Shown here piece by piece: positions 3,456 through 53,822 of a stretch of 64,000 bases of DNA (the stretch's first letter is position 1; each line of letters opens with the position of its first letter). The stretch lies in sequence record PQ433349.1, one strand, 5' to 3'. The stretch comes from Escherichia phage vB_Ec-G1. A model generated the notes under the pieces. It was not told the DNA's origin and made no database searches. It saw only the letters and a program-made list of their open reading frames with translations. The position numbers were made by a program, and so were the translations under genes.

Positions 3456-3779
3456 CTAATTAGTGCTATCATCTTTAACTACCTCCAGTTGCCTTTCGAG
3501 TTTAACTTTGTTTGAGAACTGATAATGACACAGCTTACAATCAATGTCAACAATCTGATCGTGATTTAACCCTACAATTTTAACTTCCTTTGCACCATCC
3601 CACTCTAAGTATTCGAAGTCTGATAAACAACTACTCTTACTTAAAATAAAATCCACCTGTTGCCACTCCACCTGCATATCATCGATATGATAAGCTGCAC
3701 AGAATACATCATGGTAGTAAAATGCTATCATAACCATCTTTTCATCAATAGCAACTACTTCCCGCCTTGTAAATCTCAT
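3456..3779 (-). CDS. hypothetical protein (first gene of leftward early operon)
   Basis: 107 aa ORF immediately left of divergent intergenic region. Confidence 0.5.
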   Translation of the reverse strand: MRFTRREVVAIDEKMVMIAFYYHDVFCAAYHIDDMQVEWQQVDFILSKSSCLSDFEYLEWDGAKEVKIVGLNHDQIVDIDCKLCHYQFSNKVKLERQLEVVKDDSTN

Positions 3780-4030
3780 TCTAGCCTCCTAAACGCGTCT
3801 CTGACGCACTTTTTATATATAAGATGATAAATCACCTTACCTCGTAAGTAAACTTGCTCTACGAGCCTCTTATGAAGCTTGTGTTATAGGCTATACTATT
3901 GCTACCTGCTTAAGCAAGGTTTTTGCACACAGAAAATAATTTTAATAAAACTCTTGACTTTTGTGTTCGAAGTATGCTACCCTAGAAATCTATTAACGAG
4001 CGCAGCGAGTTAAGGTTTTAGGTTGTTGAT

Positions 4031-4232
4031 GTAGTACTCTGTACTCAAGTACTGTACTCCGTACTAGATTAATAATTATTAAATATTAATAATAAATAAT
4101 TATTAGATCTAACAAACAGGTACAGTGTATCAGAACTGGTACGTACAGATCAACTTCTATCAATTAAAAAATAAAATAATAAATTATTATAAATAATAGT
4201 TGATCTATAGATCAGTATGAAGTACAGTACGG
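4031..4232. repeat. GTAC-rich array with perfect AT-rich palindromes (candidate origin or operator region)
   Basis: about ten GTAC tetramers in ~200 bp (five as GTACT within 4034-4065), 14-bp palindrome TTAATAATTATTAA, 12-bp palindrome GATCTATAGATC, inverted copies of CAGATCAACT / AGTTGATCT. Confidence 0.6.
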
Positions 4233-4260
4233 AACATCTTAACAAGAATGGAGGTGTGCA

Positions 4261-4446
4261 ATGATTAGTGAGAATCCGTGCAAATGGCATCATGTGCCTA
4301 TTAAAGATTGTATGTCTTGTAATCCACGTTCTATTTATAACATTGCATCTTATGACGATGACAATGTGTTAGACGATGATGAAGGCTGGGAGGATTTAGA
4401 TTGGACTGGTTATGAAACCAAAAAGGATAAAATTATTCCTAGTTGA
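4261..4446 (+). CDS. hypothetical small acidic protein
   Basis: 61 aa, RBS GGAGGTG before ATG. Confidence 0.5.
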   Translation: MISENPCKWHHVPIKDCMSCNPRSIYNIASYDDDNVLDDDEGWEDLDWTGYETKKDKIIPS

Positions 4447-4483
4447 CTTAAGATATCCTTCGTGCTAAACTAGAAGTGAGGAG

Positions 4484-4735
4484 ATGCCGATCACTCCCCA
4501 TTTGGGGTTCGAAGGATATATGCAAAATAGTTTTTATTTTAGGTGCCGTGCTTGTAATAGGCATTTGACAAACCACTCCAGACGTGATAAAAATGGAGTC
4601 ATCAAGGAATCAGACCTCTGTTCTATTTGCACAGGTTTGGCTTTTGATGATAGTCCCGAAAGGGTTTATCAGCATCAATGTATAACAGACGTTCTCGTGT
4701 CAAACTTGGTAGAGGACGAACAACTAACAGATTAG
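4484..4735 (+). CDS. hypothetical Cys-rich protein (possible zinc ribbon)
   Basis: 83 aa with CRACN...CSIC pairs; RBS GAGGAG. Confidence 0.5.
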   Translation: MPITPHLGFEGYMQNSFYFRCRACNRHLTNHSRRDKNGVIKESDLCSICTGLAFDDSPERVYQHQCITDVLVSNLVEDEQLTD

Positions 4736-4743
4736 GAGGAACA

Positions 4744-4992
4744 ATGTCTCTATTAGAAAAACACGTGTTTGAAGATGGTAACGGCAATGCAGTTTTTCTT
4801 TTCCATCCAGAAAAATACACATCTGAAAACAATGGTACAACTTCTATTGTAATCACTAAAGATGTTAAAGTTATTGATTTCTTGGCTCTGATGCGAGAGA
4901 TGGATCTTGAAATTAATACTTTTAACGCAGAAGCTTTGGTTGTTGCTCTTCTGGAAAAGAAAGATAGTGAAGAAGTAGCAGAATATGCTTAA
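4744..4992 (+). CDS. hypothetical protein
   Basis: ATG at 4744 preceded by AGGAGGA; in-frame upstream extension to 4678 lacks RBS. Confidence 0.5.
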   Translation: MSLLEKHVFEDGNGNAVFLFHPEKYTSENNGTTSIVITKDVKVIDFLALMREMDLEINTFNAEALVVALLEKKDSEEVAEYA

Positions 4993-4999
4993 ATAACTA

Positions 5000-5029
5000 T
5001 TGACAAACGTATCCTTCATATGTTAGGAT
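5000..5029 (+). promoter_or_regulatory. sigma70-like promoter upstream of tRNA cluster
   Basis: TTGACA 5000-5005, 17/18-nt spacer, TTAGGAT; shares extended motif ACTATTGACAA...TATGTTAG with promoter at 5586. Confidence 0.5.
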
Positions 5030-5238
5030 ACGTTCATCAAGTGTGGTAACAGGGTCGTTGACTTTTGTTAAGAGGGGCTTGCACTGCGGTAGTGTTAGAG
5101 ACTACTTCTTCAGAGGTTAGCTACCAAAGAGGAAAAGGAATAGTCTCGGCTCAAGAACTTTTACGCTGAAAGTTGGGCTTGGTCTTAGAGAATGTAGCGG
5201 TTCTCTGCAATTGTCAGCGTCTCTGTTACCACATTTAT

Positions 5239-5313
5239 GGCCCTGTAGCTCAATGGGAGAGCTGTCGGCTCATAACCGATAGGTAGCTGGATCGAAACCA
5301 GCCAGGGCCACCA
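5239..5313 (+). tRNA. tRNA-Met: tRNA with CAT anticodon (Met/fMet/Ile2 not distinguishable)
   Basis: acceptor GGCCCTG/CAGGGCC, D-stem GCTC/GAGC, anticodon loop CTCATAA, T-arm GCTGG-ATCGAAA-CCAGC, CCA encoded. Confidence 0.75.
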
Positions 5314-5315
5314 AC

Positions 5316-5390
5316 GTCTTTATGGTGTAATGGATAGCACAGGAGTCTTCTAAACTCTTAGTCAAGGTTCGATTCCTTGTAAAGACACCA
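5316..5390 (+). tRNA. tRNA-Arg: tRNA-Arg (anticodon TCT)
   Basis: acceptor GTCTTTA/TAAAGAC, anticodon loop CTTCTAA, T-arm CAAGG-TTCGATT-CCTTG, CCA encoded. Confidence 0.75.
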
Positions 5391-5585
5391 GAACATTTTA
5401 ACATGAATTAGCTCAAGTGATTTGAACCCACTACTGATCATGGTGGCAGAGAATGAGGCAAGTATGTCAGACATTATAAACAAAGGCCACGGTTATATTA
5501 GAAGACATAAATGCTCGAAGAGCACCGTTCGTGGAGAACGGGGGTTGGTGGAGTCACCATTCATGGTAAAATGTTTTAAAAAACT

Positions 5586-5614
5586 ATTGACAACAAACAT
5601 TATTTTATGTTAGA
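5586..5614 (+). promoter_or_regulatory. sigma70-like promoter
   Basis: TTGACA 5586-5591, 17-nt spacer, TTAGAT. Confidence 0.5.
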
Positions 5615-5622
5615 TTATAAAT

Positions 5623-5713
5623 ATGGAAGGGCAAATCGACGTGGCGACGAAAACGGTCTTGAAAACCGCCGAGCTTGAAAGAGCCTTGGGAGTTCGACTC
5701 TCCCTCCTTCCGC
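5623..5713 (+). tRNA. tRNA-Ser: tRNA-Ser (anticodon TGA), long variable arm
   Basis: acceptor GGAAGGG/TCCTTCC, anticodon loop CTTGAAA, variable hairpin GAGC-TTGAAA-GAGC, T-arm GGGAG-TTCGACT-CTCCC, CCA; D-region spacing slightly atypical. Confidence 0.6.
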
Positions 5714-5737
5714 CAGATTGGTAGATTGGTAGATTGG
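5714..5737 (+). repeat. perfect tandem repeat (GATTGGTA)x3 spanning 5' end of tRNA-Ser(GCT)
   Basis: GATTGGTAGATTGGTAGATTGGTG read directly; second copy supplies the tRNA acceptor strand. Confidence 0.8.
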
Positions 5738-5811
5738 TGAAATGGTAGCCACAACAGTTTGCTAAACTGTAGTCGGAAACGGCGTGTAGGTTCGAGTCCT
5801 ACATCTACCGC
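5726..5811 (+). tRNA. tRNA-Ser: tRNA-Ser (anticodon GCT), long variable arm
   Basis: acceptor GGTAGAT/ATCTACC, anticodon stem ACAGT/ACTGT with loop TTGCTAA, T-arm GTAGG-TTCGAGT-CCTAC, CCA. Confidence 0.7.
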
Positions 5812-5941
5812 CAAGTTCTTTTTAATATAGCTTACTTTAATAGAGTAAATTTTCGGCAGATGGCCCCCATCATCTTACCGATACCTCATAGTTAGTGGTG
5901 CGAACACTGGCTATTTTAAAAAGAATTTAAATATTAGTATT

Positions 5942-6029
5942 TAGGTGAGTTAATTCCGTAGGGGTAGCGGGGCAGACTGTAAATCTGTTATCATTGCGAT
6001 TCGGGTGGTTCGACTCCATCACTCACCAC
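5942..6029 (+). tRNA. tRNA-Tyr: tRNA-Tyr (anticodon GTA), long variable arm
   Basis: acceptor GGTGAGT/ACTCACC, anticodon arm GCAGA-CTGTAAA-TCTGT, T-arm GGTGG-TTCGACT-CCATC, CCA; anticodon arm matches E. coli tRNA-Tyr as recalled. Confidence 0.8.
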
Positions 6030-6035
6030 CAAATT

Positions 6036-6121
6036 AAGATGAGTTGGCTGAATGGTTTAAGCAGCGGACTGTTAATCCGTGTTCGAAAGAACAATATAGG
6101 TTCGAATCCTATACTCATCGC
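6036..6121 (+). tRNA. tRNA, probable anticodon GTT (Asn) but with atypical long variable arm
   Basis: perfect acceptor GATGAGT/ACTCATC, T-arm ATAGG-TTCGAAT-CCTAT, CCA; best anticodon arm GCGGA-CTGTTAA-TCCGT; 15-nt extra hairpin GTTC-GAAA-GAAC. Confidence 0.45.
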
Positions 6122-6128
6122 CAGAATT

Positions 6129-6205
6129 ATGGACTTGTAGAGTTAAGGTAAACCCCCAGTCGCCAATAGGCTTCTGGAATTGCAGGTATCGAATCCTGCC
6201 GAGTC
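6129..6205 (+). pseudogene. tRNA-like element, probably non-functional or non-canonical
   Basis: acceptor-like GGACTTG/CGAGTCC and T-arm-like GCAGG-TATCGAAT-CCTGC (8-nt loop) but no convincing anticodon arm and no CCA. Confidence 0.3.
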
Positions 6206-6211
6206 CCAGCA

Positions 6212-6286
6212 TTGCTCCTATAGTATAATGGCTATTACAACGGTTTTGTAATCCGTGGATCTCTGTTCGATTCAGTGTGGGAGCAC
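6212..6286 (+). tRNA. tRNA-Thr: tRNA-Thr (anticodon TGT)
   Basis: acceptor GCTCCTA/TGGGAGC, anticodon stem ACGG/CCGT with loop containing TTTGTAA, T-loop TTCGATT, CCA. Confidence 0.6.
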
Positions 6287-6561
6287 CAACACAACATTAA
6301 GAGCACTGTGATTGATCGTCGTATCCTGTGCACAAGGTCTGCTCGAAAGACAGTGTTCTTAGTATTGTGTTGATCACAAAAAGAGTCACCCGAAACTTGA
6401 CCGGAGTAGGGTTGGATGGGGCAAAATGAGAAGCGGCTCTCCCATCGACAGCAACGAAGAATAATATTTGACTTTGGTTTTGTATTATTTTAAGTTAGCT
6501 TACCGAACGTAGGGCTAGTCACCCAACGGGATACTCGTCACTGTCCCAATCAATAAAAGTC

Positions 6562-6591
6562 TTGACAACAAATAGTAAAATGTAGTATAGT
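6562..6591 (+). promoter_or_regulatory. sigma70-like promoter upstream of tRNA-Gly
   Basis: TTGACA 6562-6567, 18-nt spacer, TATAGT. Confidence 0.55.
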
Positions 6592-6602
6592 AAATATATA
6601 GG

Positions 6603-6676
6603 GCGTTCTTGGTGTAGCGGTAGCATTCCGTCCTTCCAAGTCGGCGGCACGAGTTCGATCCTCGTAGAACGCTCCA
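6603..6676 (+). tRNA. tRNA-Gly: tRNA-Gly (anticodon TCC)
   Basis: acceptor GCGTTCT/AGAACGC, anticodon loop CTTCCAA, T-arm ACGAG-TTCGATC-CTCGT, CCA. Confidence 0.7.
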
Positions 6677-6772
6677 AATTATTTAATAAAGGGTTGCCAG
6701 AAAACTTTCTCTTTTACTCATGGTTTTCTCCTTCTCTCACACTTCTTCTGGTTGCCCTTCATTAAATGATTT

Positions 6773-6850
6773 ATTGGTTTGTAGTGTAGTCCGGTAGCAC
6801 ACGACACTTTGACTGTCGTAGGTTTGGTTCAAATCCAGACAGACCAGCCA
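6773..6850 (+). tRNA. tRNA-Gln: tRNA-Gln (anticodon TTG)
   Basis: acceptor TGGTTTG/CAGACCA (U1-A72), anticodon arm CGACA-CTTTGAC-TGTCG, T-arm TTTGG-TTCAAAT-CCAGA, CCA. Confidence 0.7.
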
Positions 6851-6855
6851 TATAA

Positions 6856-6932
6856 CGGAGTTTAGCTCAGTTTGGTAGAGCATACGCTTTGGGAGCGTAG
6901 GGTCGCAGGTTCGAATCCTGCAATTCCGACCA
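6856..6932 (+). tRNA. tRNA-Pro: tRNA-Pro (anticodon TGG)
   Basis: acceptor CGGAGTT/AATTCCG, D-stem GCTC/GAGC, anticodon arm TACGC-TTTGGGA-GCGTA, T-arm GCAGG-TTCGAAT-CCTGC, CCA. Confidence 0.8.
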
Positions 6933-6938
6933 ATTAAA

Positions 6939-7012
6939 TGTTTCGTAGTTCAATGGTAGAACCCACGACTGATAATCGTGAGACACAAGTTCGATTCTTG
7001 TCGAAACAACCA
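6939..7012 (+). tRNA. tRNA-Ile: tRNA-Ile (anticodon GAT)
   Basis: acceptor TGTTTCG/CGAAACA, D-stem GTTC/GAAC, anticodon arm CACGA-CTGATAA-TCGTG, T-arm ACAAG-TTCGATT-CTTGT, CCA. Confidence 0.8.
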
Positions 7013-7014
7013 GT

Positions 7015-7084
7015 TTCCCGTTAGACTTACAGGATAAGAGTTCCACAGCTTATTGTGATGCTGGTTCGAATCCAGCACGGGATA
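7015..7084 (+). tRNA. tRNA-like gene, anticodon unresolved (possible pseudo-tRNA)
   Basis: T-arm GCTGG-TTCGAAT-CCAGC and acceptor TTCCCGT/ACGGGAT (1:72 mismatch) but only a 4-bp CACA/TGTG stem with 6-nt loop where the anticodon arm should be; no CCA. Confidence 0.35.
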
Positions 7085-7090
7085 CATAAT

Positions 7091-7169
7091 AGCGGGATAG
7101 AGGAGTCTGGTCGTCCTCGCCAGTTTCATATGCTGGAGATCATCGGTTCAAATCCGATTCCCGCCTCCA
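7091..7169 (+). tRNA. tRNA-Met: tRNA with CAT anticodon, second copy (1:72 mismatch, initiator-like feature)
   Basis: acceptor AGCGGGA/TCCCGCC, D-stem GAGG/CCTC, anticodon arm CCAGT-TTCATAT-GCTGG, T-arm ATCGG-TTCAAAT-CCGAT, CCA. Confidence 0.65.
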
Positions 7170-8671: not shown

Positions 8672-10747
8672 GTGGCAAAGAAAAAGGCAGCAGGTAGTTT
8701 AGCTGGAGTAGATATTGAAGTAAAGGCTCAACCAGGTAAACAGACTCTTGCAATGGATTTAATGCCAGAAGTTATGATTTATGGTGGTGCCGCTGGATGT
8801 GTTTCTGCTGAAACGGAATATCTTACAAAAGATGGTTGGAGACAGATTAGTGAATATTCAGGAGAGGATATTTACCAATACAACCCTAAGAATAAGCGTT
8901 TAGAATTGGTAACACCTTATTTTGTAGAATACGATTTAAATGGAGATAACCTATACAGAATAACAAATGGTGTAGGGTTGTTCCAAGAACTTAGTATGGA
9001 ACACCGTTTTGTATTCTATAAGAAAAAGAAATCAAAGAAACATTTCGAGATTCTTGTAGGAGATCTTATTGCATTACAGCAAATAGGAAAACCCCTTCAA
9101 GGTTATGTAGAAAATCCATTCGGTAAACGTGTTCCTTTTAACATACCTGGTAAAAAGAGCACTTACTTAAAAATACACGAGGTTATTTCAACAGATGATA
9201 AGAAATATTGTTTTGAGACTCCAAGCAGTTATATTGTCTTTAGACGTGGCGATCACTGCTTCGTTACTGGGAATAGCGGCAAGTCTCGTCTGCTATTGCT
9301 GAAAGCTTTAAAATACGCCTACAAAGATCCTTTGTTTGGTGGAATACTTTTTCGTAAGAACACCACTGCTCACCGTAAACCAGGTGGTCTGTTTACAGAA
9401 GCAAAACGTTTGTATCTTCCTTTACAACCGCACGTAAAAGAAAGTACAATGGATATCATTTTTGAAGCCACTGGTGGCGGAACCCTCAAATTCGACCATT
9501 TGGAAAATGATAACGTAACAGCAGAAACAAACCATCAGGGTACACAGTATTCAATGGTAGGTTTTGACGAGTTAACCCACTTCACGCAATATGAAATGCT
9601 CTATCTTCTGGGACGTATGCGTTCAGAATCAGAAACAAGCTTCATGTTGTGCACATGTAACCCCGATGCAGATAGTTGGGTTTTGAATTGGGTGTTACCT
9701 TATCTTGATGAGGGTGGTTATCCTAGAGAAGATATGTGTGGTAAACAAAAATATTTCATCATTGTTAACGATGAACCTGTTTTTGCTGACACACCTGAAG
9801 AACTGAAAGAAAAATATCCAGAAAACTGTTTCATGGAAAACCCTAATACAGGGGAGACAGTTGTTATTGAACCACAAACTTTCGTATTTATTGGTGGGAC
9901 AATATTTGATAACCCAGAACTGATTAGGCTTAACCCTAATTACTTAGCACAGCTTAAATCACAAACAGCAATTAAAAGAGCACAGCTTCTGGATGGTTGT
10001 TGGTTTGCACGTATTCAGAAAGAATCTTTCTTTCAACGTGAATGGTTACATAAAATATCTTATAAAGATGTTCCTAACAATCTTAAACTAATGCGAGCCT
10101 GGGATAAAGCTGTTTCAGTTCCTACAGAAACTTATCGTTATCCAGACTATACAACGTCTGTCAAAATGGGTAAAGATCAAGATGGTAATATCTACATCTT
10201 TGGTGACTATGACTATGACGCTGTGGATGAGAAAAGTAAAATTTTCGGAAGGTTTAGAAGACTACCTGGGGAAAGGGATAATCTGATTCTTAATCAATGT
10301 AAGATTGATGGACCAGAAGTTACAGTAGTGCTTCCTAAAGACCCATCTGGTGCTGGGACAATAGAATATACAGAGTCTGCAAAGAAACTTATTCTAGAAG
10401 GTTTTGTTGTTAAACCAGATGCTATGCCAGGTAACAAGAAAAAGCTTCAGCGTTTTATGCCTTTTAGTAGCGCGTGTCAAAATGGTTTTGTTTATATTGT
10501 TGAAGATTCTTTCCCTAATGTGGAAACTCTAACCCACTTTTATAAAGAATTGGAATCTTTCAATGGTGAAAGATCTACAGCCACTATTAAAGATGACATT
10601 CCCGATGCTGCTGCTTCTTGTTTCAATACTCTGTCAAAAGAGAATACTTTCAAGGCAGTAGCTATCCCTGCAACAACAAATGCTCCTACAGGATACAGTA
10701 GAATGAACAGCGGATTTCACCAACCGTATAGTGTCCGTAAAAGATAA
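8672..10747 (+). CDS. terminase large subunit, intein-containing precursor
   Basis: 691 aa; GTG start after AAGGAGG; Walker A split as GGAAG/SGKS around an insert, Walker B MVGFDELTHF; C-terminal nuclease-like region. Confidence 0.85.
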   Translation: MAKKKAAGSLAGVDIEVKAQPGKQTLAMDLMPEVMIYGGAAGCVSAETEYLTKDGWRQISEYSGEDIYQYNPKNKRLELVTPYFVEYDLNGDNLYRITNGVGLFQELSMEHRFVFYKKKKSKKHFEILVGDLIALQQIGKPLQGYVENPFGKRVPFNIPGKKSTYLKIHEVISTDDKKYCFETPSSYIVFRRGDHCFVTGNSGKSRLLLLKALKYAYKDPLFGGILFRKNTTAHRKPGGLFTEAKRLYLPLQPHVKESTMDIIFEATGGGTLKFDHLENDNVTAETNHQGTQYSMVGFDELTHFTQYEMLYLLGRMRSESETSFMLCTCNPDADSWVLNWVLPYLDEGGYPREDMCGKQKYFIIVNDEPVFADTPEELKEKYPENCFMENPNTGETVVIEPQTFVFIGGTIFDNPELIRLNPNYLAQLKSQTAIKRAQLLDGCWFARIQKESFFQREWLHKISYKDVPNNLKLMRAWDKAVSVPTETYRYPDYTTSVKMGKDQDGNIYIFGDYDYDAVDEKSKIFGRFRRLPGERDNLILNQCKIDGPEVTVVLPKDPSGAGTIEYTESAKKLILEGFVVKPDAMPGNKKKLQRFMPFSSACQNGFVYIVEDSFPNVETLTHFYKELESFNGERSTATIKDDIPDAAASCFNTLSKENTFKAVAIPATTNAPTGYSRMNSGFHQPYSVRKR
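8798..9274 (+). mobile_element. mini-intein (159 aa) inserted in terminase Walker A P-loop
   Basis: insert begins Cys43 (CVSAETEYLTKDGW), has TxxH-like SMEH, ends ...FVTGN201 followed by Ser; excision restores GGAAGSGKS. Confidence 0.7.
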
Positions 10748-49254: not shown

Positions 49255-52200
49255 CTAGTGACAGGACGCCCAGGAGTTACCCACATCATATCCGGCAGTA
49301 AGCTGAACATTAAGATTGTAAAATTCTCCAGCCTTAGTAACAGCTAAAGCAGCAAGTTCACCTGCCCGACTATAGGCTGTAAACCATCCACCTTTGGGAG
49401 ATTCATGAATGTTAGCCCAAATTTGCCCTGTCTCTTTTTCCTTATTATGCTTCCATTCTTCAACTTTAGCAAGGCATTCTTTATCAATTTTCTTTTGTTC
49501 TTCAGGATCGTCTACTTTCTTCCAACCTAATGATTCAGGTGAAAACCATTTAAATTCTACAAGGTTACGAGAAACTTCAAGCTGGGCTTCATCGTGATAT
49601 GCAATCATTTGTTGCACGAAGTCTTTATTCTTCCAGTCATCTTTAAAGAAGTCAACACTTAGCCCTTCTTCTTCGATCATGTCGTCATAAATAACCATTG
49701 CACGTTTAGCACAGATAACCCCACCACTTTGGAACAGAGAGTTAAGAATCGCGTGAGCAGAACGAGTAGGAACCTTACGACCGTCAATACCCAAAACATA
49801 CTGTTTACCAGTCTTAACCCAGAAATCGTTTAAACGTTCTTTAAGACGCGCCAGTGGGAATGCAGCTTCCCAGAAAGCATCGAACACCAACTGACCTGTA
49901 AACTTATCGCTACCAATTGTTTTAGCAACCTTGTCGGCTTGTGCACCATAAGTAATACCATACTTAACAGATTTAGCAGGACTACGTTCAAATTTACGTC
50001 CAATAGTTTCAGTGATACGTTTTGCCATCATTGTGTGAACATCATTAGGTTTCTCTAACAACAGAGCGTTACAATATTCATGTGGCTCCGGCTCGTACCG
50101 CCAACAGTTTCCTGTGATGGTAATGCAGTCTTTCTGACGCATGACCCACGTACCAAGTTCTGTTTGTGGACACCAAACATCCTCTACACCCCACTCTTCA
50201 ATAGTCAAACTTTGAACAGGAATGTGAGAGCGGTTAGCCAATGTTACCACTTTTACTTTCTGCTCTTTTGTATTGAAAGCTACAGAGATATTGCCTCCAT
50301 GCACCAGGTACGAGGCAGTTAAAGCTGCTTCAAAAAGTTCACCTGGGTTCTGCGCCCAACGCCAAACAGGTTTTTGTTTATGTTCATGCCAGTAACCATC
50401 TGCAATCAAGAAACCTTCCAAGAAAGCTACACGCTCGGCATGAGACATATTAACTACACGCTCTACCCACGGAACATCCCATTTACCTTGTTGAACAGAA
50501 GTTAAACTATTTACCTGATCTTGTTCCATGTTAAATGGAGCATTACAAATAATATTATCTCCTGTGCAAAGCTCGGCAGTTGTTCTGACTTTAGGCACAT
50601 AAGTATTCCCTTTACTACGGGTATTAACATACCAACGGTGATCTGCTGTTGCACGGTAAGTGTGTGATTTCCCTTTAATCTCAAACGTCTTACTATTTTT
50701 ATAGAAGACCTTACCTTTTACTTTAGTCCATTCTTTCAGACCTGTTTCAGCATTGTACCCTAAAATCTCATCCCCTTCCTTCAGGTCGTGATATCCTACC
50801 CAACCTTTACGAGTCAAAGCTTGAGCATCCATCGGCACACAGTAGTGTGACTCAATCTTTGCTTCCAAAGAGTCGAAGTCATAACCGATCTGGAAGTATT
50901 TAGGAACTTCTACACCAAACAAGTTACGCATCTCCCATCCAAACAAAGATGTGACACGAGGAATATTAGCTACAGATCTATGTTTCATACGAGAGGTTGC
51001 AGCATCACATGTAGCGGCTGGGGTAGGAATACGCCCATCTGCCCTTACTGCGGCTAAGAAACCTTTATCGTATTCTTGATCTTCTTCATCTTCTTCCCAA
51101 TCAGCACCGCCACCTAAAATAGAGTTCCTACGATGCTTATACGTTAAGTATTCTACAATCTGTGTAGCATAGGGAAATTTCTCACCCAAAGCTTGCAAAT
51201 TGGGACAGATTTCTTTTTCCTGACCTTTGGTAAAACATGGGTTAGTCAATACTTTAAGACCGCGACCTTTACCTTTTGCTATACGCTCTTGAATCTTCCT
51301 TTCCAAGGTTTCCGGTGTGCACTCCAGATGATCACAACGGTCCTGACAAAAATTAGAAGATAAAGTTTGCTCAACGTAAGCTCGAATACCTTTCTGAAGT
51401 TCTTCCTCACTCTTTTTAATCTTGGTGCCAGATTTAAGAGTCAAATCTTTATCTTTATATTCTGATGGTACCCAACCTAATCCTACAAGCCAGTTTTTAA
51501 TATGGGTTGTATCGTTCAATGTTGCAGGGATGTTAGGATCACACAGAGGCTCATCTGCTGCAACTGGCAGTTTCCACTCTTTCCCCAACATAACTAACCA
51601 CCAATCGCCATCCCTCTCTTCCAAATGACCATCATGTTTCTTAGCAAAATTGATCATATGGTTAGTTGGTTCTAGGTTCTTTTTAATTTGCAATTTAGGC
51701 GGAATAAAAGCTTTAAGATAACCTTTTGTTGCTGGTTTAGGTGGCAAAATAGGCTCAACGAGTAAACGAAGACGCTCCATTTCTGCATCCAAAAAAGCAA
51801 GGTTCTCTTCTGCTTGTTTCATGTTAAAAGCAAACCCACGGTGTTCCTGGCGTGTAATAATGTCTGCTACACGTTGTTCAAGTTCAAATGGACCTTCCCA
51901 TTTATCATAATCACCCCATTCTTCCATAAGGTAATTATATACGCTCGTATTGGCTTTGTTGTCATAGATACAGTAATAAAGCATATCCGCAGCAAAAGTC
52001 TTAAATCGATCTTCTTCTGGAATCTCTTTACGGAAATCTATTTTTACATCACCACCTGCTTTTCGAGAAAGTGCTGCCAAGCTATGTCCTGATTTGCCCT
52101 CAATCTTTCGATCTGGGTTTAACACTTTACTCAAAATCAAGGAGTCAATAAGTTTTACCTTATTTTTGCCCCACGTATTATATTTAACACTGTAATCTAA

Positions 52201-52587
52201 TCCATAAAACAGTTTTGTAGCCAACCAGTCGTAGTTGATACCGTTGTGAGCCACAGCCATTTCAACCAGATATTCAGGCTTGTCTTTAAAATAACCTTCA
52301 TGATTAATAAAATCTGGGAAATCTTTTAGTTGAAAATGCGTGTAATCTTGCGCCACATACTCTTTAAGAACATATGTGTATTTACCATCTGACTCTTCAT
52401 AAGGACGCCCATCAAAGATGTATTTAGGGCCATCGTGGAAAGCTACTATTTCTCCTGTTTCATGGTTCTCTAAGACAATACAGTGCATTTGAAATGTGTC
52501 TTTGAGACGATAAGGACTAGCTAAATAATCAATAGTGTCATTATTCAACAATCCGTTTGCTTCAATATCCCATGTAAACTTACTCAC
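49255..52587 (-). CDS. family A DNA polymerase with 3'-5' exonuclease domain, intein-containing precursor
   Basis: 1110 aa; exo motif DIEANGL; motif A GYDFDSLEAKIESHY, motif B RSPAKSVKYGITYG, motif C YHDEAQLEV; GTG start after AAAGGAGG. Confidence 0.9.
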   Translation of the reverse strand: MSKFTWDIEANGLLNNDTIDYLASPYRLKDTFQMHCIVLENHETGEIVAFHDGPKYIFDGRPYEESDGKYTYVLKEYVAQDYTHFQLKDFPDFINHEGYFKDKPEYLVEMAVAHNGINYDWLATKLFYGLDYSVKYNTWGKNKVKLIDSLILSKVLNPDRKIEGKSGHSLAALSRKAGGDVKIDFRKEIPEEDRFKTFAADMLYYCIYDNKANTSVYNYLMEEWGDYDKWEGPFELEQRVADIITRQEHRGFAFNMKQAEENLAFLDAEMERLRLLVEPILPPKPATKGYLKAFIPPKLQIKKNLEPTNHMINFAKKHDGHLEERDGDWWLVMLGKEWKLPVAADEPLCDPNIPATLNDTTHIKNWLVGLGWVPSEYKDKDLTLKSGTKIKKSEEELQKGIRAYVEQTLSSNFCQDRCDHLECTPETLERKIQERIAKGKGRGLKVLTNPCFTKGQEKEICPNLQALGEKFPYATQIVEYLTYKHRRNSILGGGADWEEDEEDQEYDKGFLAAVRADGRIPTPAATCDAATSRMKHRSVANIPRVTSLFGWEMRNLFGVEVPKYFQIGYDFDSLEAKIESHYCVPMDAQALTRKGWVGYHDLKEGDEILGYNAETGLKEWTKVKGKVFYKNSKTFEIKGKSHTYRATADHRWYVNTRSKGNTYVPKVRTTAELCTGDNIICNAPFNMEQDQVNSLTSVQQGKWDVPWVERVVNMSHAERVAFLEGFLIADGYWHEHKQKPVWRWAQNPGELFEAALTASYLVHGGNISVAFNTKEQKVKVVTLANRSHIPVQSLTIEEWGVEDVWCPQTELGTWVMRQKDCITITGNCWRYEPEPHEYCNALLLEKPNDVHTMMAKRITETIGRKFERSPAKSVKYGITYGAQADKVAKTIGSDKFTGQLVFDAFWEAAFPLARLKERLNDFWVKTGKQYVLGIDGRKVPTRSAHAILNSLFQSGGVICAKRAMVIYDDMIEEEGLSVDFFKDDWKNKDFVQQMIAYHDEAQLEVSRNLVEFKWFSPESLGWKKVDDPEEQKKIDKECLAKVEEWKHNKEKETGQIWANIHESPKGGWFTAYSRAGELAALAVTKAGEFYNLNVQLTAGYDVGNSWASCH
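50107..50841 (-). mobile_element. intein (245 aa) with LAGLIDADG-type homing endonuclease motif in DNA polymerase
   Basis: insert starts Cys583 right after motif A, has TxxH-like TADH, LEGFLIADG, ends ...ITITGN827 followed by Cys828; separates motifs A and B. Confidence 0.75.
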
Positions 52588-53381
52588 TATTCCTCCTTTC
52601 TAATGTTCTCCAGAACCCACTGAAGTTCTTTTAAACTTAAACTTCTTACTCCCGCAGTTTTACTAGCTTCAGCTTTAAGTAACGGGTAAGCCTCAATGAT
52701 ACGCGTTTTAAGATCAGAAGTCAAGGCTTTTAAAAAATAGGTAGATGCTTCAGATAAAGAATCTTCTTCTGATAACACTTTACCTGCACTTGCTCCCGCT
52801 CTCCTAACGGCTATATCGTAGTCTTTACTGTTACCTAATACGAATAGTCGATTCTCTCCTAAAACAACGGGAGAACGCTTCTCGTTGCGTTTAATCCATA
52901 TCTGGAATACACAAGGAACATCCCAAGGTTCTCCATGAAGAATAAAAGATCCTTTTGGACATTCTTCTTCGTAAAGAAGATGCATGTGGGGATTTAGTTT
53001 GTGTGCAAAAAAGATTTTTTGAAATGTGCGAGGCAAGATAAAACAAATACCACCTTCGTTATCCAACATTTCAGCACAATGGTTAAAGAACTTAATGGCA
53101 AGACTAGCATTTTTTCCAAACGGAGGATTACCGACAAAAGCAGTTACACTACCAACAGACTCAACAGATTGAGCTAAAAAATCTGCCTCAATACAATCTT
53201 CAAACTTAGGGTCAATATCAAAAGAAGTTATGTTTTTAAAACAAGAAGAGAAAGCTCCTTCTCCCGCAGATGGTTCTACGTAGTTAGCTTCCTCTCCAAA
53301 AATTTCTTTGATCTTATCACATAAGAACCCCGCATAAGCGGGGTTAGTGTAATATTGATCAAGTGTGTTCAACTTGCTCAA
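52587..53381 (-). CDS. N6-adenine DNA methyltransferase (motif I before NPPF; N4-cytosine not excluded)
   Basis: 264 aa; VEPSAGEGAF then VGNPPFG; TTG start after AAGGAGG; 1-nt overlap with polymerase start. Confidence 0.7.
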   Translation of the reverse strand: MSKLNTLDQYYTNPAYAGFLCDKIKEIFGEEANYVEPSAGEGAFSSCFKNITSFDIDPKFEDCIEADFLAQSVESVGSVTAFVGNPPFGKNASLAIKFFNHCAEMLDNEGGICFILPRTFQKIFFAHKLNPHMHLLYEEECPKGSFILHGEPWDVPCVFQIWIKRNEKRSPVVLGENRLFVLGNSKDYDIAVRRAGASAGKVLSEEDSLSEASTYFLKALTSDLKTRIIEAYPLLKAEASKTAGVRSLSLKELQWVLENIRKEE

Positions 53382-53390
53382 TAGTCCTCC

Positions 53391-53822
53391 TTAGTTGTTA
53401 GCGAACTCAATAGTGAGGTCAACTTTACCATCATCAGAAATAACCATGTTTTTAGTATTTTTAAAGATGATATCTACTTTACCTTCACTTACACGACAGA
53501 ATGCAACACCATCTGCAACTTTATCGATATAATATTTGTAAGAAAGAATACCCACTTTACTACGACCAGCACCTTTTGTGAAAGAAGGGCTTACATCGAA
53601 ACGGAAACCTTTAGAAGAAACAACACGGTAAGAACGTCCAGTTGGGATATGTTCAATAACAGAGACATTGTTCTCAACAACTTTTACAGCAAACTCTTCA
53701 GGATGATCCTCAACAATCATGTGCGGAATGGCAAATGCCAACGCTTGTTTGTGTTTAATAACACCAGCACCCAGAGCACCAGCAGCTTTAACTTTTGCAT
53801 TCAGATCGATTGTCATACGCAT
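53391..53822 (-). CDS. hypothetical protein
   Basis: 143 aa, RBS AGAGGAGAAG. Confidence 0.5.
   Translation of the reverse strand: MRMTIDLNAKVKAAGALGAGVIKHKQALAFAIPHMIVEDHPEEFAVKVVENNVSVIEHIPTGRSYRVVSSKGFRFDVSPSFTKGAGRSKVGILSYKYYIDKVADGVAFCRVSEGKVDIIFKNTKNMVISDDGKVDLTIEFANN

What the first reader, a model, noticed from the sequence alone, without database searches (positions are those of the whole stretch)
4031..4232. GTAC-rich palindromic array in the divergent intergenic region
The ~480 bp untranslated gap between the leftward early operon and rightward genes holds about ten GTAC tetramers in 200 bp (five as GTACT within ~35 bp), a perfect 14-bp palindrome TTAATAATTATTAA, a perfect 12-bp palindrome GATCTATAGATC, and inverted CAGATCAACT / AGTTGATCT copies. 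That is far above chance for a 4-mer and looks like an array of protein-binding sites. It could be an operator for the divergent promoters, a replication origin, or a packaging or nuclease recognition region.
Basis: seen in the sequence. Interest (0 to 1): 0.65.

Follow-up and report, generated by a model that had tools for sequence, protein, structure and literature searches.

The report
GTAC repeat cluster between phage promoters
A 200-bp non-coding stretch of a phAPEC8-like coliphage holds ten copies of GTAC, the four-letter word this phage avoids most elsewhere; it sits between two predicted rightward promoters and is most likely a lineage-specific protein-binding control element, but its function is unproven.

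Summary
The window is a Phapecoctavirus (phAPEC8-like) genome. GTAC is the most depleted of all 256 tetramers (63 seen, about 205 expected), yet 10 copies lie at 4034-4230. A complete relative has no comparable cluster. E. coli K-12 does not avoid GTAC.

The array lies in a divergent intergenic region whose layout is shared across the subfamily: promoter P1, a conserved leader box, GATC inverted repeats, an A/T block, then promoter P2. Only core Phapecoctavirus (64 records) adds the GTAC elements:
- five GTACT direct repeats downstream of P1;
- a central trio of GTAC;
- two copies over the -10 of P2, which also form a 16-bp inverted repeat with the left array.

Best reading (confidence about 0.35): a lineage-specific operator-like array that times rightward transcription into the tRNA and structural genes. 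No binding protein was identified.

A packaging site is disfavoured, because the terminal repeats of Schickermooser lie 54.5 kb away. A replication origin is not excluded, but a more iteron-like candidate lies elsewhere in the genome.

Side findings: the depletion spares GGTACC; two public records carry GTAC-specific changes; a methyltransferase cassette co-occurs with GTAC depletion; a relative has no CTAG at all.

The parts
3824..3852 (-). Predicted leftward sigma-70-type promoter (TTTACT-17-TATCAT) for the operon that starts at ORF 3456..3779
   Evidence: Consensus scan, 9 of 12 matches. Invariant in 10 aligned Phapecoctavirus genomes. Prediction only.
3954..3983 (+). Predicted rightward promoter P1: TTGACT, 18-nt spacer ending in TGC (extended -10), then TACCCT
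   Evidence: Read from the sequence. The same arrangement is conserved at the same place in BME3, KP13-26, Tr1 and two IMG/VR contigs. It recurs at three places in the Schickermooser genome. It falls below the threshold of the simple scan.
3997..4009 (+). Conserved leader box CGAGCGCAGCGAG, about 8-20 nt downstream of the predicted P1 start
   Evidence: Conserved across Stephanstirmvirinae relatives while the flanks vary. It follows all three P1-class promoters in Schickermooser, as CGAGCG(C or AT)AGCGAG.
4034..4065 (+). Five GTACT direct repeats (GTACTCT GTACTCAA GTACT GTACTCC GTACTAG) with start-to-start spacing of 7, 8, 5 and 7 bp
   Evidence: A 56-bp query (4020-4075) that spans the repeats is identical in 41 of 64 records and differs by one base in about 17. 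The repeats are absent from phiWec188/179, BME3, KP13-26 and Tr1.
4068..4105 (.). A/T block 1: 38 nt of pure A/T, containing the 14-bp palindrome at 4069-4082
   Evidence: It is a 72%-identical direct repeat of the second A/T block plus GATC (family D1). It forms a hairpin in single-strand folds.
4105..4146 (.). AGATCTAAC motif followed by the central GTAC trio: GTACAGT...ACTGGTAC hairpin arms and the palindrome GTACGTAC
   Evidence: GATCTAACA(G/A)AC is shared with BME3 and Tr1, but there it has no GTAC.
4147..4206 (.). Inverted repeat AGATCAACT (4147-4155) / AGTTGATCT (4198-4206) enclosing A/T block 2 (4162-4198, 37 nt of pure A/T)
   Evidence: The right arm overlaps the -35 of P2.
4200..4228 (+). 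Predicted promoter P2: TTGATC-17-TACAGT, preceded by A/T block 2 as a UP-like element. The 12-bp palindrome GATCTATAGATC (4202-4213) lies in its spacer.
   Evidence: Read from the sequence. A TTGAC-type -35 directly after the A/T block, with a TAnnnT hexamer 17-18 nt downstream, is found at the same place in BME3, phiWec, KP13-26 and Tr1. It is conserved in alignment A1. It falls below the threshold of the simple scan.
4214..4230 (.). Right arm AGTATGAAGTACAGTAC, holding GTAC at 4222 and 4227 across the P2 -10. It is complementary to 4049-4065 of the left array: 16 pairs (one of them G-U in the RNA fold) and one mismatch, with the arms 148 bp apart.
   Evidence: The fold z-score is -4.0 to -4.9 for this lineage only.
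4249..4446 (+). Ribosome-binding site GGAGG (4249-4253) and the first rightward gene (61 aa, 4261..4446). Two small genes, ten tRNA genes (5239-7169) and the terminase (8672..10747) follow.
52587..53822 (-). Association only: an N6-adenine methyltransferase-like gene (52587..53381) and a 143-aa partner gene (53391..53822). Within the subfamily they occur only in the genomes that carry the array.
   Evidence: Their specificity and any link to the array are untested.

Best explanation
The GTAC elements are a lineage-specific set of recognition sites for a sequence-specific DNA-binding factor. They were added to a regulatory leader that the whole phage subfamily shares.

Proposed mechanism (inferred, not shown). 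A dimeric or oligomeric protein recognises the palindromic GTAC core, most often in the form GTACT. It occupies three clusters:
- five sites 45-75 nt downstream of the P1 start;
- three central sites;
- two sites on the -10 hexamer of P2.

Cooperative binding would shut P2 and block transcripts coming from P1. It may be helped by looping across the two pure A/T blocks and the 16-bp inverted repeat that links the left array to the P2 -10. The effect would be to set the time at which the rightward module (three small genes, ten tRNAs, terminase and structural genes) is expressed.

Shown here: the sites, their statistical excess, their position relative to conserved promoter-like elements, their conservation within the lineage, and their absence from sister lineages.

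Inferred: that P1 and P2 are active promoters, that a protein binds, and the regulatory outcome.
For: 1. Extreme local excess of the genome's most avoided tetramer. There are 10 GTAC in 197 bp against 53 in the other 63.8 kb. The array uses the most avoided hexamer contexts, AGTACT (O/E 0.19) and TGTACT (O/E 0.15). The host sample shows no GTAC avoidance (O/E 0.90). The sites therefore persist against a phage-specific pressure.

2. Placement. The left array follows a promoter class that is conserved across the subfamily and recurs three times in the genome. The right pair covers the -10 of P2.

3. Short same-orientation repeats at 5-8 bp spacing, together with inverted copies 150-170 bp away, fit multi-site operators.

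4. Conservation. The 481-bp spacer is 98-99% identical among relatives whose surrounding 2 kb is about 96% identical. A 56-bp query spanning the five repeats is identical in 41 of 64 records. All 10 GTAC are kept in five independently sequenced genomes: this window, nepoznato, ASO2A, Schickermooser and UP17.

5. Sister lineages keep the whole scaffold (P1, leader box, GATC repeats, A/T block, P2) but lack the GTAC elements. This fits a regulatory add-on rather than a core function.

6. A distant lineage, rV5, also avoids GTAC most of all tetramers. Its densest GTAC cluster is likewise in an A/T-rich spacer, after GATCTA and upstream of small ORFs, tRNAs and terminase.

7. Dense GTACT arrays occur in non-coding spacers of unrelated viral contigs.
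Against: No binding protein was identified.
- The flanking small proteins are shared with phiWec188, which lacks the array.
- They have no convincing Pfam domain.
- The only lineage-specific HTH protein found is present in just 18 records.

P1 and P2 are predictions that fall below the threshold of the simple consensus scan.

Conservation inside a group that is 95-99% identical is weak proof of selection. Between this window and Schickermooser, 0 of 10 array sites changed, against 10 of 53 other GTAC sites. That has a probability of only about 0.12 by chance (my arithmetic).

Spacings of 5-8 bp are irregular for a cooperative array.

If the GTAC changes in the BI-EHEC and KKP 3954 records are real mutations, most GTAC cores are dispensable.
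Confidence: 0.35

Rival explanations
1. Replication origin of the promoter-plus-unwinding-element type (as in T4 oriF/oriG or the T7 primary origin). Transcription from P1 would run into the pure A/T block 75-115 nt downstream and form an R-loop that primes leading-strand synthesis. The GTACT repeats and hairpins would serve as loading or iteron-like sites.
For: - The region is the second most A/T-rich 200 bp of the genome (24% GC).
- A promoter followed by an A/T block is conserved subfamily-wide.
- It lies at a strand-switch and GC-skew minimum, so bidirectional forks would run with transcription.
- Single-stranded DNA folds unusually well (z = -4.9).
- In one unrelated contig (L130) a GTACT array lies 200-450 bp downstream of a primase/helicase-like gene.
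Against: - GC skew turns equally at the other divergence point (130.3 kb) and simply follows transcription.
- The repeats are 5-bp cores at 5-8 bp spacing, not phased 17-22 bp iterons.
- No initiator gene is adjacent.
- The GTAC elements are missing in sister lineages that keep the scaffold.
- A more classical candidate lies at Schickermooser 136.7-137.25 kb: four dyad-symmetric 19-mers at exactly 29-bp spacing, next to the most A/T-rich DNA in the genome.
Confidence: 0.2
2. A structured 5' leader RNA (or single-stranded DNA) element. The P1 transcript would fold into a 180-nt domain closed by the 16-bp helix 4049-4065 / 4214-4230. That helix could be an RNase III-type processing or stability site. 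On this reading the GTAC motifs exist because they are self-complementary.
For: The RNA fold of 3990-4262 is -63.2 kcal/mol with z = -4.0 to -4.6. No shuffle folded as well. In BI-EHEC the changes in the left arm (C to T) and the right arm (G to A) keep 9 consecutive pairs (my reading).
Against: - Relatives with the same scaffold show no comparable stability (z = -0.5 to -2.4), so there is no conserved fold.
- There is too little variation for covariation tests.
- phAPEC8 breaks one pair without compensation.
- Rfam has no match.
- The ribosome-binding site is not sequestered.
- The first two GTACT units are not used by the helix.
Confidence: 0.1
3. A methylation-sensitive switch. The GTAC sites would be targets of a DNA methyltransferase, either the phage N6-adenine methyltransferase cassette or a host enzyme. 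Their methylation state (full, hemi or none) would gate P2 or initiation, as Dam GATC clusters do at oriC, IS10 and the P1 pac site.
For: - Two public records show changes aimed specifically at GTAC. In the nanopore-only BI-EHEC assembly 59% of GTAC sites changed, against 6% for an average tetramer. KKP 3954 has 7 of the 10 array sites changed.
- In BI-EHEC, no G-to-A-type change occurs at a GTAC G that is preceded by G (GGTAC). This matches the genome-wide depletion, which spares GGTACC.
- Within the subfamily the methyltransferase and its partner occur only in array-bearing genomes. They also occur in rV5-like phages, which are GTAC-depleted too.
- Two GTAC sites lie in the P2 -10, and four GATC sites are interleaved.
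Against: - The specificity of the methyltransferase is unknown (only a weak Eco57I-family match).
- A protective GTAC methylase should relax GTAC avoidance, not accompany it.
- The relative DW-EC was sequenced with the identical nanopore pipeline and keeps its GTAC sites.
- In BI-EHEC 9 of 11 coding changes are synonymous, which points to real mutation rather than modified-base miscalls.
- The co-occurrence amounts to one or two phylogenetic events.
Confidence: 0.1
4. A functionless by-product. Local duplication and slippage of a GTACT-containing unit, plus a duplicated P2-like module, would be young enough to look conserved.
For: - The region shows internal duplication: A/T block plus GATC occurs twice at 72% identity, GTACTCNGTACT occurs twice, and AAGTACNGTAC occurs twice.
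- The array is restricted to one shallow clade (95-99% identity).
- One record has a 13-bp deletion between repeats (dw-ec).
- phAPEC8 and anhysbys each lost one site.
Against: - Everywhere else GTAC is strongly selected or mutated away (O/E 0.26-0.32) and turns over faster than average (19% against 7%). A neutral cluster in non-coding DNA should decay first.
- The spacer is more conserved than its flanks.
- A similar cluster occurs at the analogous place in rV5.
Confidence: 0.1
5. A packaging (pac) or programmed nuclease site, built like the P1 pac site. In P1, clusters of a short methylatable motif flank the cleavage point.
For: The form resembles P1 pac: short repeats containing a 4-bp palindrome lie in clusters on either side of a roughly 150-bp core. 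The terminase gene lies 4.4 kb downstream. One GenBank record (nieznany) begins inside this region.
Against: Schickermooser has 329-bp direct terminal repeats at its record ends, 54.5 kb away, and they contain no GTAC. Stephanstirmvirinae in general are reported to end in direct terminal repeats. Only one of more than 64 records starts here.
Confidence: 0.04
6. Binding sites for host TrpR or a TrpR-like protein. GTACT matches the GNACT half-site of the trp repressor.
For: The TrpR half-site is GNACT (PMC9413887). The array has five GTACT. From my memory, GTACTC and GTACTAG equal the left halves of the trpR and aroH operators.
Against: No GNACT-N8-AGTNC pair exists in the array. The only such match in the window is elsewhere and is at chance level. 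The closest array pair has a 9-bp spacer. No TrpR-like domain was found in the neighbouring proteins.
Confidence: 0.04

Closest known systems
Multi-site operators made of short tandem repeats (omega protein heptads of pSM19035, MetJ met-boxes, ParG/ParR tetramer or iteron arrays around a promoter). Recalled from general knowledge.
   Same: Several contiguous 5-8 bp units in direct and inverted orientation. The clusters flank or overlap a promoter. A palindromic core suits a dimeric reader.
   Different: No cognate ribbon-helix-helix or other binding protein was identified here. The unit spacing is irregular (7, 8, 5, 7). The sites are spread over 200 bp with two pure A/T blocks between them.
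Bacteriophage P1 pac site (TGATCA/G hexamer clusters containing Dam sites). Recalled from general knowledge.
   Same: Clusters of a short motif containing a methylatable 4-bp palindrome, arranged on both sides of a core of about 100-150 bp.
   Different: The genome ends of a close relative map 54.5 kb away. There is no evidence of cleavage or of methylation dependence.
T4 oriF/oriG and the T7 primary origin (promoter followed by an A/T-rich unwinding element). Recalled from general knowledge.
   Same: A predicted strong promoter with a 38-nt pure A/T block about 75-115 nt downstream, located at a transcription divergence point.
   Different: The promoter plus A/T scaffold is shared by relatives that lack the GTAC elements, so the array itself is not explained. 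No replication data exist.
Trp repressor operators (GNACT half-sites)
   Same: The five GTACT repeats match the half-site.
   Different: The defining inverted pair with an 8-bp spacer is absent.
The rV5 spacer between ORF79 and ORF78 (Vequintavirinae)
   Same: An A/T block, then GATCTA, then three or four GTAC within 60 bp, upstream of small ORFs, tRNAs and terminase. That genome's most depleted tetramer is also GTAC, and it carries a homologous methyltransferase cassette.
   Different: rV5 has four 18-bp palindromic repeats (CTGTCCGT-N4-CGGACA) directly upstream and fewer GTAC. The two sequences are not alignable and the rV5 function is unknown.

Membership tests
P1-type pac site / terminase recognition site | Lies at the point where packaging starts, that is, at or next to the physical genome ends | tested here: not met
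   The Schickermooser record starts and ends with an identical 329-bp repeat (328 bp reported in PMC6563267). The array lies at 54.75 kb. The repeat contains no GTAC.
P1-type pac site / terminase recognition site | Clusters of a short repeated motif flanking a central cleavage region | tested here: inconclusive
   The 5 + 3 + 2 arrangement is similar in form, but no cleavage data exist.
Iteron-type (lambda-like) replication origin | Three or more iterons of about 17-22 bp at regular, helically phased spacing | tested here: not met
   The repeats are 5-bp cores at spacings of 7, 8, 5 and 7 bp. A regular array of four 19-mers at 29-bp spacing lies elsewhere in the genome.
Iteron-type (lambda-like) replication origin | Adjacent A/T-rich unwinding region | tested here: met
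   Pure A/T blocks of 38 and 37 nt; 26% GC over 4001-4200.
Iteron-type (lambda-like) replication origin | Initiator gene at or next to the origin | tested here: not met
   The neighbouring ORFs (107, 61, 71-83 and 82 aa) have no replication-protein domains. The helicase and polymerase genes lie about 45 kb away.
Promoter-plus-unwinding-element origin (T4/T7 type) | Promoter directing transcription into a downstream A/T-rich unwinding element | tested here: met
   Predicted P1 at 3954-3983, with the A/T block at 4068-4105. This is prediction only.
Promoter-plus-unwinding-element origin (T4/T7 type) | Replication actually initiates there | not testable with these tools
   GC skew is uninformative because it follows transcription at both divergence points.
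TrpR operator | GNACT half-site | tested here: met
   Five GTACT; half-site definition from PMC9413887.
TrpR operator | Two inverted half-sites separated by 8 bp | tested here: not met
   The pattern GNACT-N8-AGTNC does not occur in the array.
Tandem short-repeat operator (ribbon-helix-helix type) | Two or more contiguous short repeat units next to or over a promoter | tested here: met
   Five contiguous units downstream of P1, and two units over the P2 -10.
Tandem short-repeat operator (ribbon-helix-helix type) | A cognate small DNA-binding protein encoded nearby or co-distributed with the sites | tested here: inconclusive
   The adjacent proteins have no DNA-binding domain and are shared with the array-less phiWec188. 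The co-distributed 143-aa protein could not be modelled (pLDDT 43).
Known RNA family (Rfam) | Match to a curated covariance model | tested here: not met
   Only a tRNA matched in 3700-5300 at E <= 1.

The most novel reading that the evidence does not exclude
The array would be the cis-acting part of a GTAC-centred epigenetic or restriction-linked circuit. A GTAC-specific modification or cleavage activity would act in these phage-host pairs. Hints of such an activity are the lineage-specific genome-wide purge of GTAC that spares GGTACC, the GTAC-targeted changes in two public records, and a methyltransferase-plus-partner cassette found only in the two GTAC-depleted lineages. The ten retained sites would then form a methylation-state sensor. 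It would couple firing of the late-module promoter, or a replication or recombination start, to DNA replication. This would be a GTAC counterpart of Dam-GATC control at oriC and the P1 pac site. Similar GTACT arrays in unrelated phages suggest the theme may be widespread.
Probability: 0.1. Interest if true: 0.75.

Novelty: new variant of a known kind. Interest (0 to 1): 0.45.

Why it matters
Phapecoctavirus phages are widely isolated and are proposed for therapy against pathogenic E. coli. Nothing is known about how they time gene expression or start replication.

This spacer is the clearest candidate control region in the genome. It offers a simple handle for experiments: ten copies of a motif that is nearly absent elsewhere.

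Keeping ten restriction-type palindromes in a genome that has shed about 70% of them is a natural test case for how function and anti-restriction pressure trade off.

If the sites turn out to be read through their methylation state, that would add a second example of palindrome-cluster epigenetic control in phages.

Tried and rejected
- **Genome terminus or pac site:** rejected. The terminal repeats of Schickermooser are elsewhere.
- **GC skew as origin evidence:** uninformative. It follows transcription.
- **Rfam search:** no match.
- **Conserved RNA fold across the subfamily:** not supported.
- **Canonical TrpR operator:** absent.
- **d(GCGNAGC) mini-hairpin in the leader box:** dropped. The two other copies of the box read GCGATAGC.
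they are shared with the array-less phiWec188 and have no significant domains.
present in only 18 records.
- **Homologue of the rV5 ORF79 regulator:** none found.
- **Methyltransferase specificity:** Pfam, NCBIfam, PDB and 2,465 homologues gave no specificity.
- **Structure of the 143-aa partner protein:** the AlphaFold model had pLDDT 43, so no fold search was run.
- **'Dcm-like' protein (Schickermooser_00059) as a GTAC C5-methylase:** it has no Pfam match, and its region was matched in phiWec188 by the whole-genome comparison, so the gene is apparently also present there.
- **Protein-based search of IMG/VR for relatives:** found nothing.
- **14-mer promoter search of IMG/VR:** gave mostly chance hits, with two true relatives.
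- **Literature:** no paper in the searchable library describes this region, its promoters, or a GTAC methylase in these phages.
Full report
**What the window is.** A 2-kb query around the finding matches 152 phage records at up to 96% identity, nearly all of them phAPEC8-like coliphages of the genus Phapecoctavirus, subfamily Stephanstirmvirinae. The finding lies in the 481-bp non-coding gap 3780-4260.
- To the left, a long operon runs leftward, starting at ORF 3456..3779.
- To the right run three small genes, ten tRNA genes (5239-7169), the terminase (8672..10747) and the structural genes.

In the complete genome of the relative Schickermooser (151,194 bp), this is one of two points where transcription diverges: 54.5-55.0 kb and 130.3 kb.

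GTAC starts at 4034, 4041, 4049, 4054 and 4061 (all as GTACT, in the same orientation), and at 4120, 4139, 4143, 4222 and 4227.
- The window has 63 GTAC where a second-order Markov model expects 205. GTAC is the most depleted of all 256 tetramers.
- No other 200-bp window in it has more than three.
- Schickermooser has 147 against 456 expected. The homologous cluster is the only 200-bp window with more than six.
- A 50-kb sample of E. coli K-12 has GTAC at 0.90 of expectation, so the avoidance belongs to the phage, not the host.
- The chance of ten sites in 200 bp is below 1e-8 per window even at the undepleted rate (my arithmetic).

**Anatomy.** Reading left to right:
- a predicted leftward promoter (3852-3824);
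- a rightward promoter P1 (TTGACT, 18-nt spacer ending in TGC, TACCCT; 3954-3983);
- a leader box CGAGCGCAGCGAG (3997-4009);
- five GTACT repeats (4034-4065);
- 38 nt of pure A/T (4068-4105);
- AGATCTAAC;
- a hairpin-forming trio of GTAC (4120-4146);
- an inverted repeat (4147-4155 / 4198-4206) around 37 nt of pure A/T;
- a second rightward promoter P2 (TTGATC-17-TACAGT; 4200-4228), whose -10 is covered by the last two GTAC;
- the ribosome-binding site and the start codon at 4261.

Units 3-5 of the left array (4049-4065) are complementary to 4214-4230, with 16 pairs and one mismatch. The region therefore folds far better than shuffled sequence, as RNA (z = -4.0) and as single-stranded DNA (z = -4.9). 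P1 and P2 are predictions. Both fall below the threshold of the simple consensus scan and rest on conservation.

**Comparison with relatives.** The scaffold is shared by other Stephanstirmvirinae: BME3 and two IMG/VR contigs (Justusliebigvirus), Klebsiella phage KP13-26, Citrobacter phage Tr1 and the phiWec179/188 group. It comprises P1, the leader box, GATC-bearing repeats including GATCTAAC, one A/T block, and P2 with a TTGAC -35 directly after the A/T block.

None of these relatives has the GTAC elements, and phiWec has no GTAC at all in this spacer. The array is thus an addition specific to core Phapecoctavirus, which comprises 64 records.

Within that group:
- the spacer is 98-99% identical, while the surrounding 2 kb is about 96% identical;
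- a 56-bp query spanning the five repeats is identical in 41 of 64 records;
- all ten sites are kept in five independently sequenced genomes;
- phAPEC8 and anhysbys each lost one site.

P1 belongs to a small promoter class that occurs three times in Schickermooser (54668 +, 128649 -, 15108 -). Each copy is followed by the box CGAGCG(C or AT)AGCGAG. The strong fold is confined to the array-bearing lineage: relatives give z = -0.5 to -2.4.

**What it is not.** It is not the genome end. Schickermooser carries identical 329-bp terminal repeats at its record ends, 54.5 kb away and free of GTAC. Direct terminal repeats are also reported for other members of the subfamily. There is no Rfam match. It is not a canonical TrpR operator. 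GTACT equals the GNACT half-site, but the required inverted pair with an 8-bp spacer is absent.

**Origin or operator.** Several features fit a T4/T7-type origin:
- a promoter running into an A/T block;
- the second-lowest GC content in the genome;
- a GC-skew minimum.

The skew, however, turns equally at the other divergence point and simply follows transcription. The GTAC units are not phased iterons, and no initiator gene is nearby.

A more classical element exists at Schickermooser 136.7-137.25 kb, outside this window. It has four dyad-symmetric 19-mers at exactly 29-bp spacing, next to the most A/T-rich DNA of the genome. A related motif occurs in the terminal repeat.

The GTAC elements were added to a conserved promoter scaffold. 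They bracket the leader and cover the P2 -10. I therefore rank a lineage-specific operator-like array first (0.35) and an origin second (0.20). Lower down come a structured leader RNA, a methylation switch and neutral duplication (about 0.1 each), then a pac or nuclease site and TrpR-type binding (0.04 each).

**Search for the reader protein.**
- The flanking small proteins are 67-87% identical to those of the array-less phiWec188 and show no significant domains.
- A whole-genome comparison of Schickermooser with phiWec188 listed about 40 lineage-specific segments.
- Among them is an HTH_38 protein, but it occurs in only 18 records.
- Also among them is an N6-adenine methyltransferase-like gene with a 143-aa partner (window 52587..53822). 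These occur in all 64 array-bearing records and, at 54% and 30% identity, in rV5-like phages.
- The methyltransferase specificity could not be inferred.
- The partner protein gave an unusable model (pLDDT 43).

**GTAC biology around the array.** The depletion is lineage-specific:
- O/E is 0.32 in Schickermooser and 0.49 in rV5, the lowest tetramer in both;
- it is 0.62 in phiWec188 and about 0.6-0.9 in short loci of other relatives.

The depletion affects every flanking context except GGTACC, which is at 1.1.

Two public records carry changes aimed at GTAC.
- BI-EHEC is a nanopore-only assembly. It differs from Schickermooser at 59% of GTAC sites, against 6% for an average tetramer. Most changes are GTAC to ATAC or GTAT, and they include 9 of the 10 array sites.
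- KKP 3954 has 7 of the 10 array sites changed, with small indels.
- In BI-EHEC, no G-to-A-type change occurs at a GTAC G that is preceded by G (GGTAC).

Two readings remain open.
- Miscalls at a modified base: favoured by the indels and by each site being changed at only one of its two ends.
- Real loss under selection: favoured because 9 of 11 coding changes in BI-EHEC are synonymous, and because DW-EC, sequenced with the identical pipeline, keeps its sites.

Either reading implies a GTAC-directed activity in some hosts. Either makes the retention of ten sites in the most avoided contexts (AGTACT at 0.19, TGTACT at 0.15) more notable.

rV5 also places its densest GTAC cluster in an A/T-rich spacer, after GATCTA and upstream of its tRNA-terminase module. 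Dense GTACT arrays also occur in non-coding spacers of unrelated viral contigs, one of them next to a primase/helicase-like gene.

**Verdict.** This is a real, highly non-random and conserved non-coding element in a lineage-specific form. Its kind (a short-repeat recognition array in a promoter leader) is familiar. Three aspects are new, and I found no description of them in the searchable literature:
- it is built from the genome's most avoided word;
- it shows a possible link to GTAC modification;
- it recurs in other phages.

The mechanism remains an inference.

Noticed in passing
L118-L120 (phiWec188, LC739537.1, whole genome): This 149,831-bp relative contains no CTAG at all, where 243 are expected. 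Its GTAC is only mildly depleted (O/E 0.62). Total loss of a tetramer suggests very strong, lineage-specific restriction pressure or a modification or sequencing effect.
   Followed up: no
Schickermooser whole genome (L003-L007); applies to the window as well: GTAC depletion depends on context. All sixteen NGTACN hexamers lie at O/E 0.08-0.59 except GGTACC (the KpnI site), which has 17 observed against 15.5 expected.
   Followed up: partly
L112, L117 (BI-EHEC, OL505078.1) and L123 (KKP 3954, OR067838.1): Two public records show substitutions and small indels aimed specifically at GTAC, mostly GTAC to ATAC or GTAT. BI-EHEC is a nanopore-only assembly. It is unresolved whether these are miscalls at a modified base or real site loss.
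   Followed up: partly
window 50107-50838 (- strand), inside the DNA polymerase gene 49255..52587: The family A DNA polymerase is 1110 aa here against 865 aa in Schickermooser. The difference is a 244-aa in-frame insertion between extein parts that are 99.8% (583 aa) and 100% (283 aa) identical. The insertion begins with Cys and ends ...GN followed by Cys, which looks like an intein. Pfam did not recognise it.
   Followed up: partly
window 3954-4009; Schickermooser 54668 (+), 128649 (-), 15108 (-): A distinct promoter class (TTGACT, T-rich spacer, TGnTACCCT), followed 13-14 nt downstream of the -10 hexamer by the box CGAGCG(C or AT)AGCGAG, occurs three times per genome. One copy points antisense into the early region.
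   Followed up: partly
Schickermooser 136,700-137,250 (L007 33,700-34,250), outside the window: The most A/T-rich 500 bp of the genome holds 138-bp direct repeats and four dyad-symmetric 19-mers (AAATGAGAA-N3-TTCTCAT type) at exactly 29-bp spacing. This is a lambda-ori-like layout. A related ATCATTCTCAT motif occurs in the terminal repeat.
   Followed up: partly
Schickermooser 139-147 kb, outside the window: About a dozen short early genes are each preceded by a sigma-70-like promoter and a conserved leader hairpin, GTAGGGCGGC-aatggt-GCCGCC.
   Followed up: no
L121 24,931-25,308 (rV5, DQ832317.1 64,930-65,307): The spacer after the rV5 ORF79 (a putative winged-helix regulator) holds four 18-bp palindromic repeats (CTGTCCGT-N4-CGGACA) about 22 bp apart, then an A/T block, then GATCTA and a GTAC cluster. 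The annotated ORF78 overlaps a GAGCGAAGCGATAGCG box and may be spurious.
   Followed up: no
window 52587-53822 (- strand): A two-gene cassette (N6-adenine methyltransferase-like, 264 aa, plus an unknown 143-aa protein) lies between the helicase and polymerase genes. It is shared with rV5-like phages and absent from phiWec188.
   Followed up: partly
MN850598.1 (nieznany), record start: This GenBank record begins inside the studied spacer, near window position 4220 (the P2 -10 and the right arm of the inverted repeat). This is probably an assembly break at the A/T-rich inverted repeats.
   Followed up: no
L124/L129, L128, L130, L125 (IMG/VR contigs): Unrelated viral contigs carry dense GTACT or GTACTA arrays, up to about 15 GTAC in about 130 bp and often as two clusters around a central segment. 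They lie in long non-coding spacers. In L130 the array is 200-450 bp downstream of a primase/helicase-like gene.
   Followed up: partly
window 3456-3779 (- strand): The 107-aa protein next to the spacer is at most 80% identical to its counterparts in other Phapecoctavirus records, although the adjacent spacer is 98-99% identical. This indicates a mosaic allele exchange that ends at the spacer.
   Followed up: no
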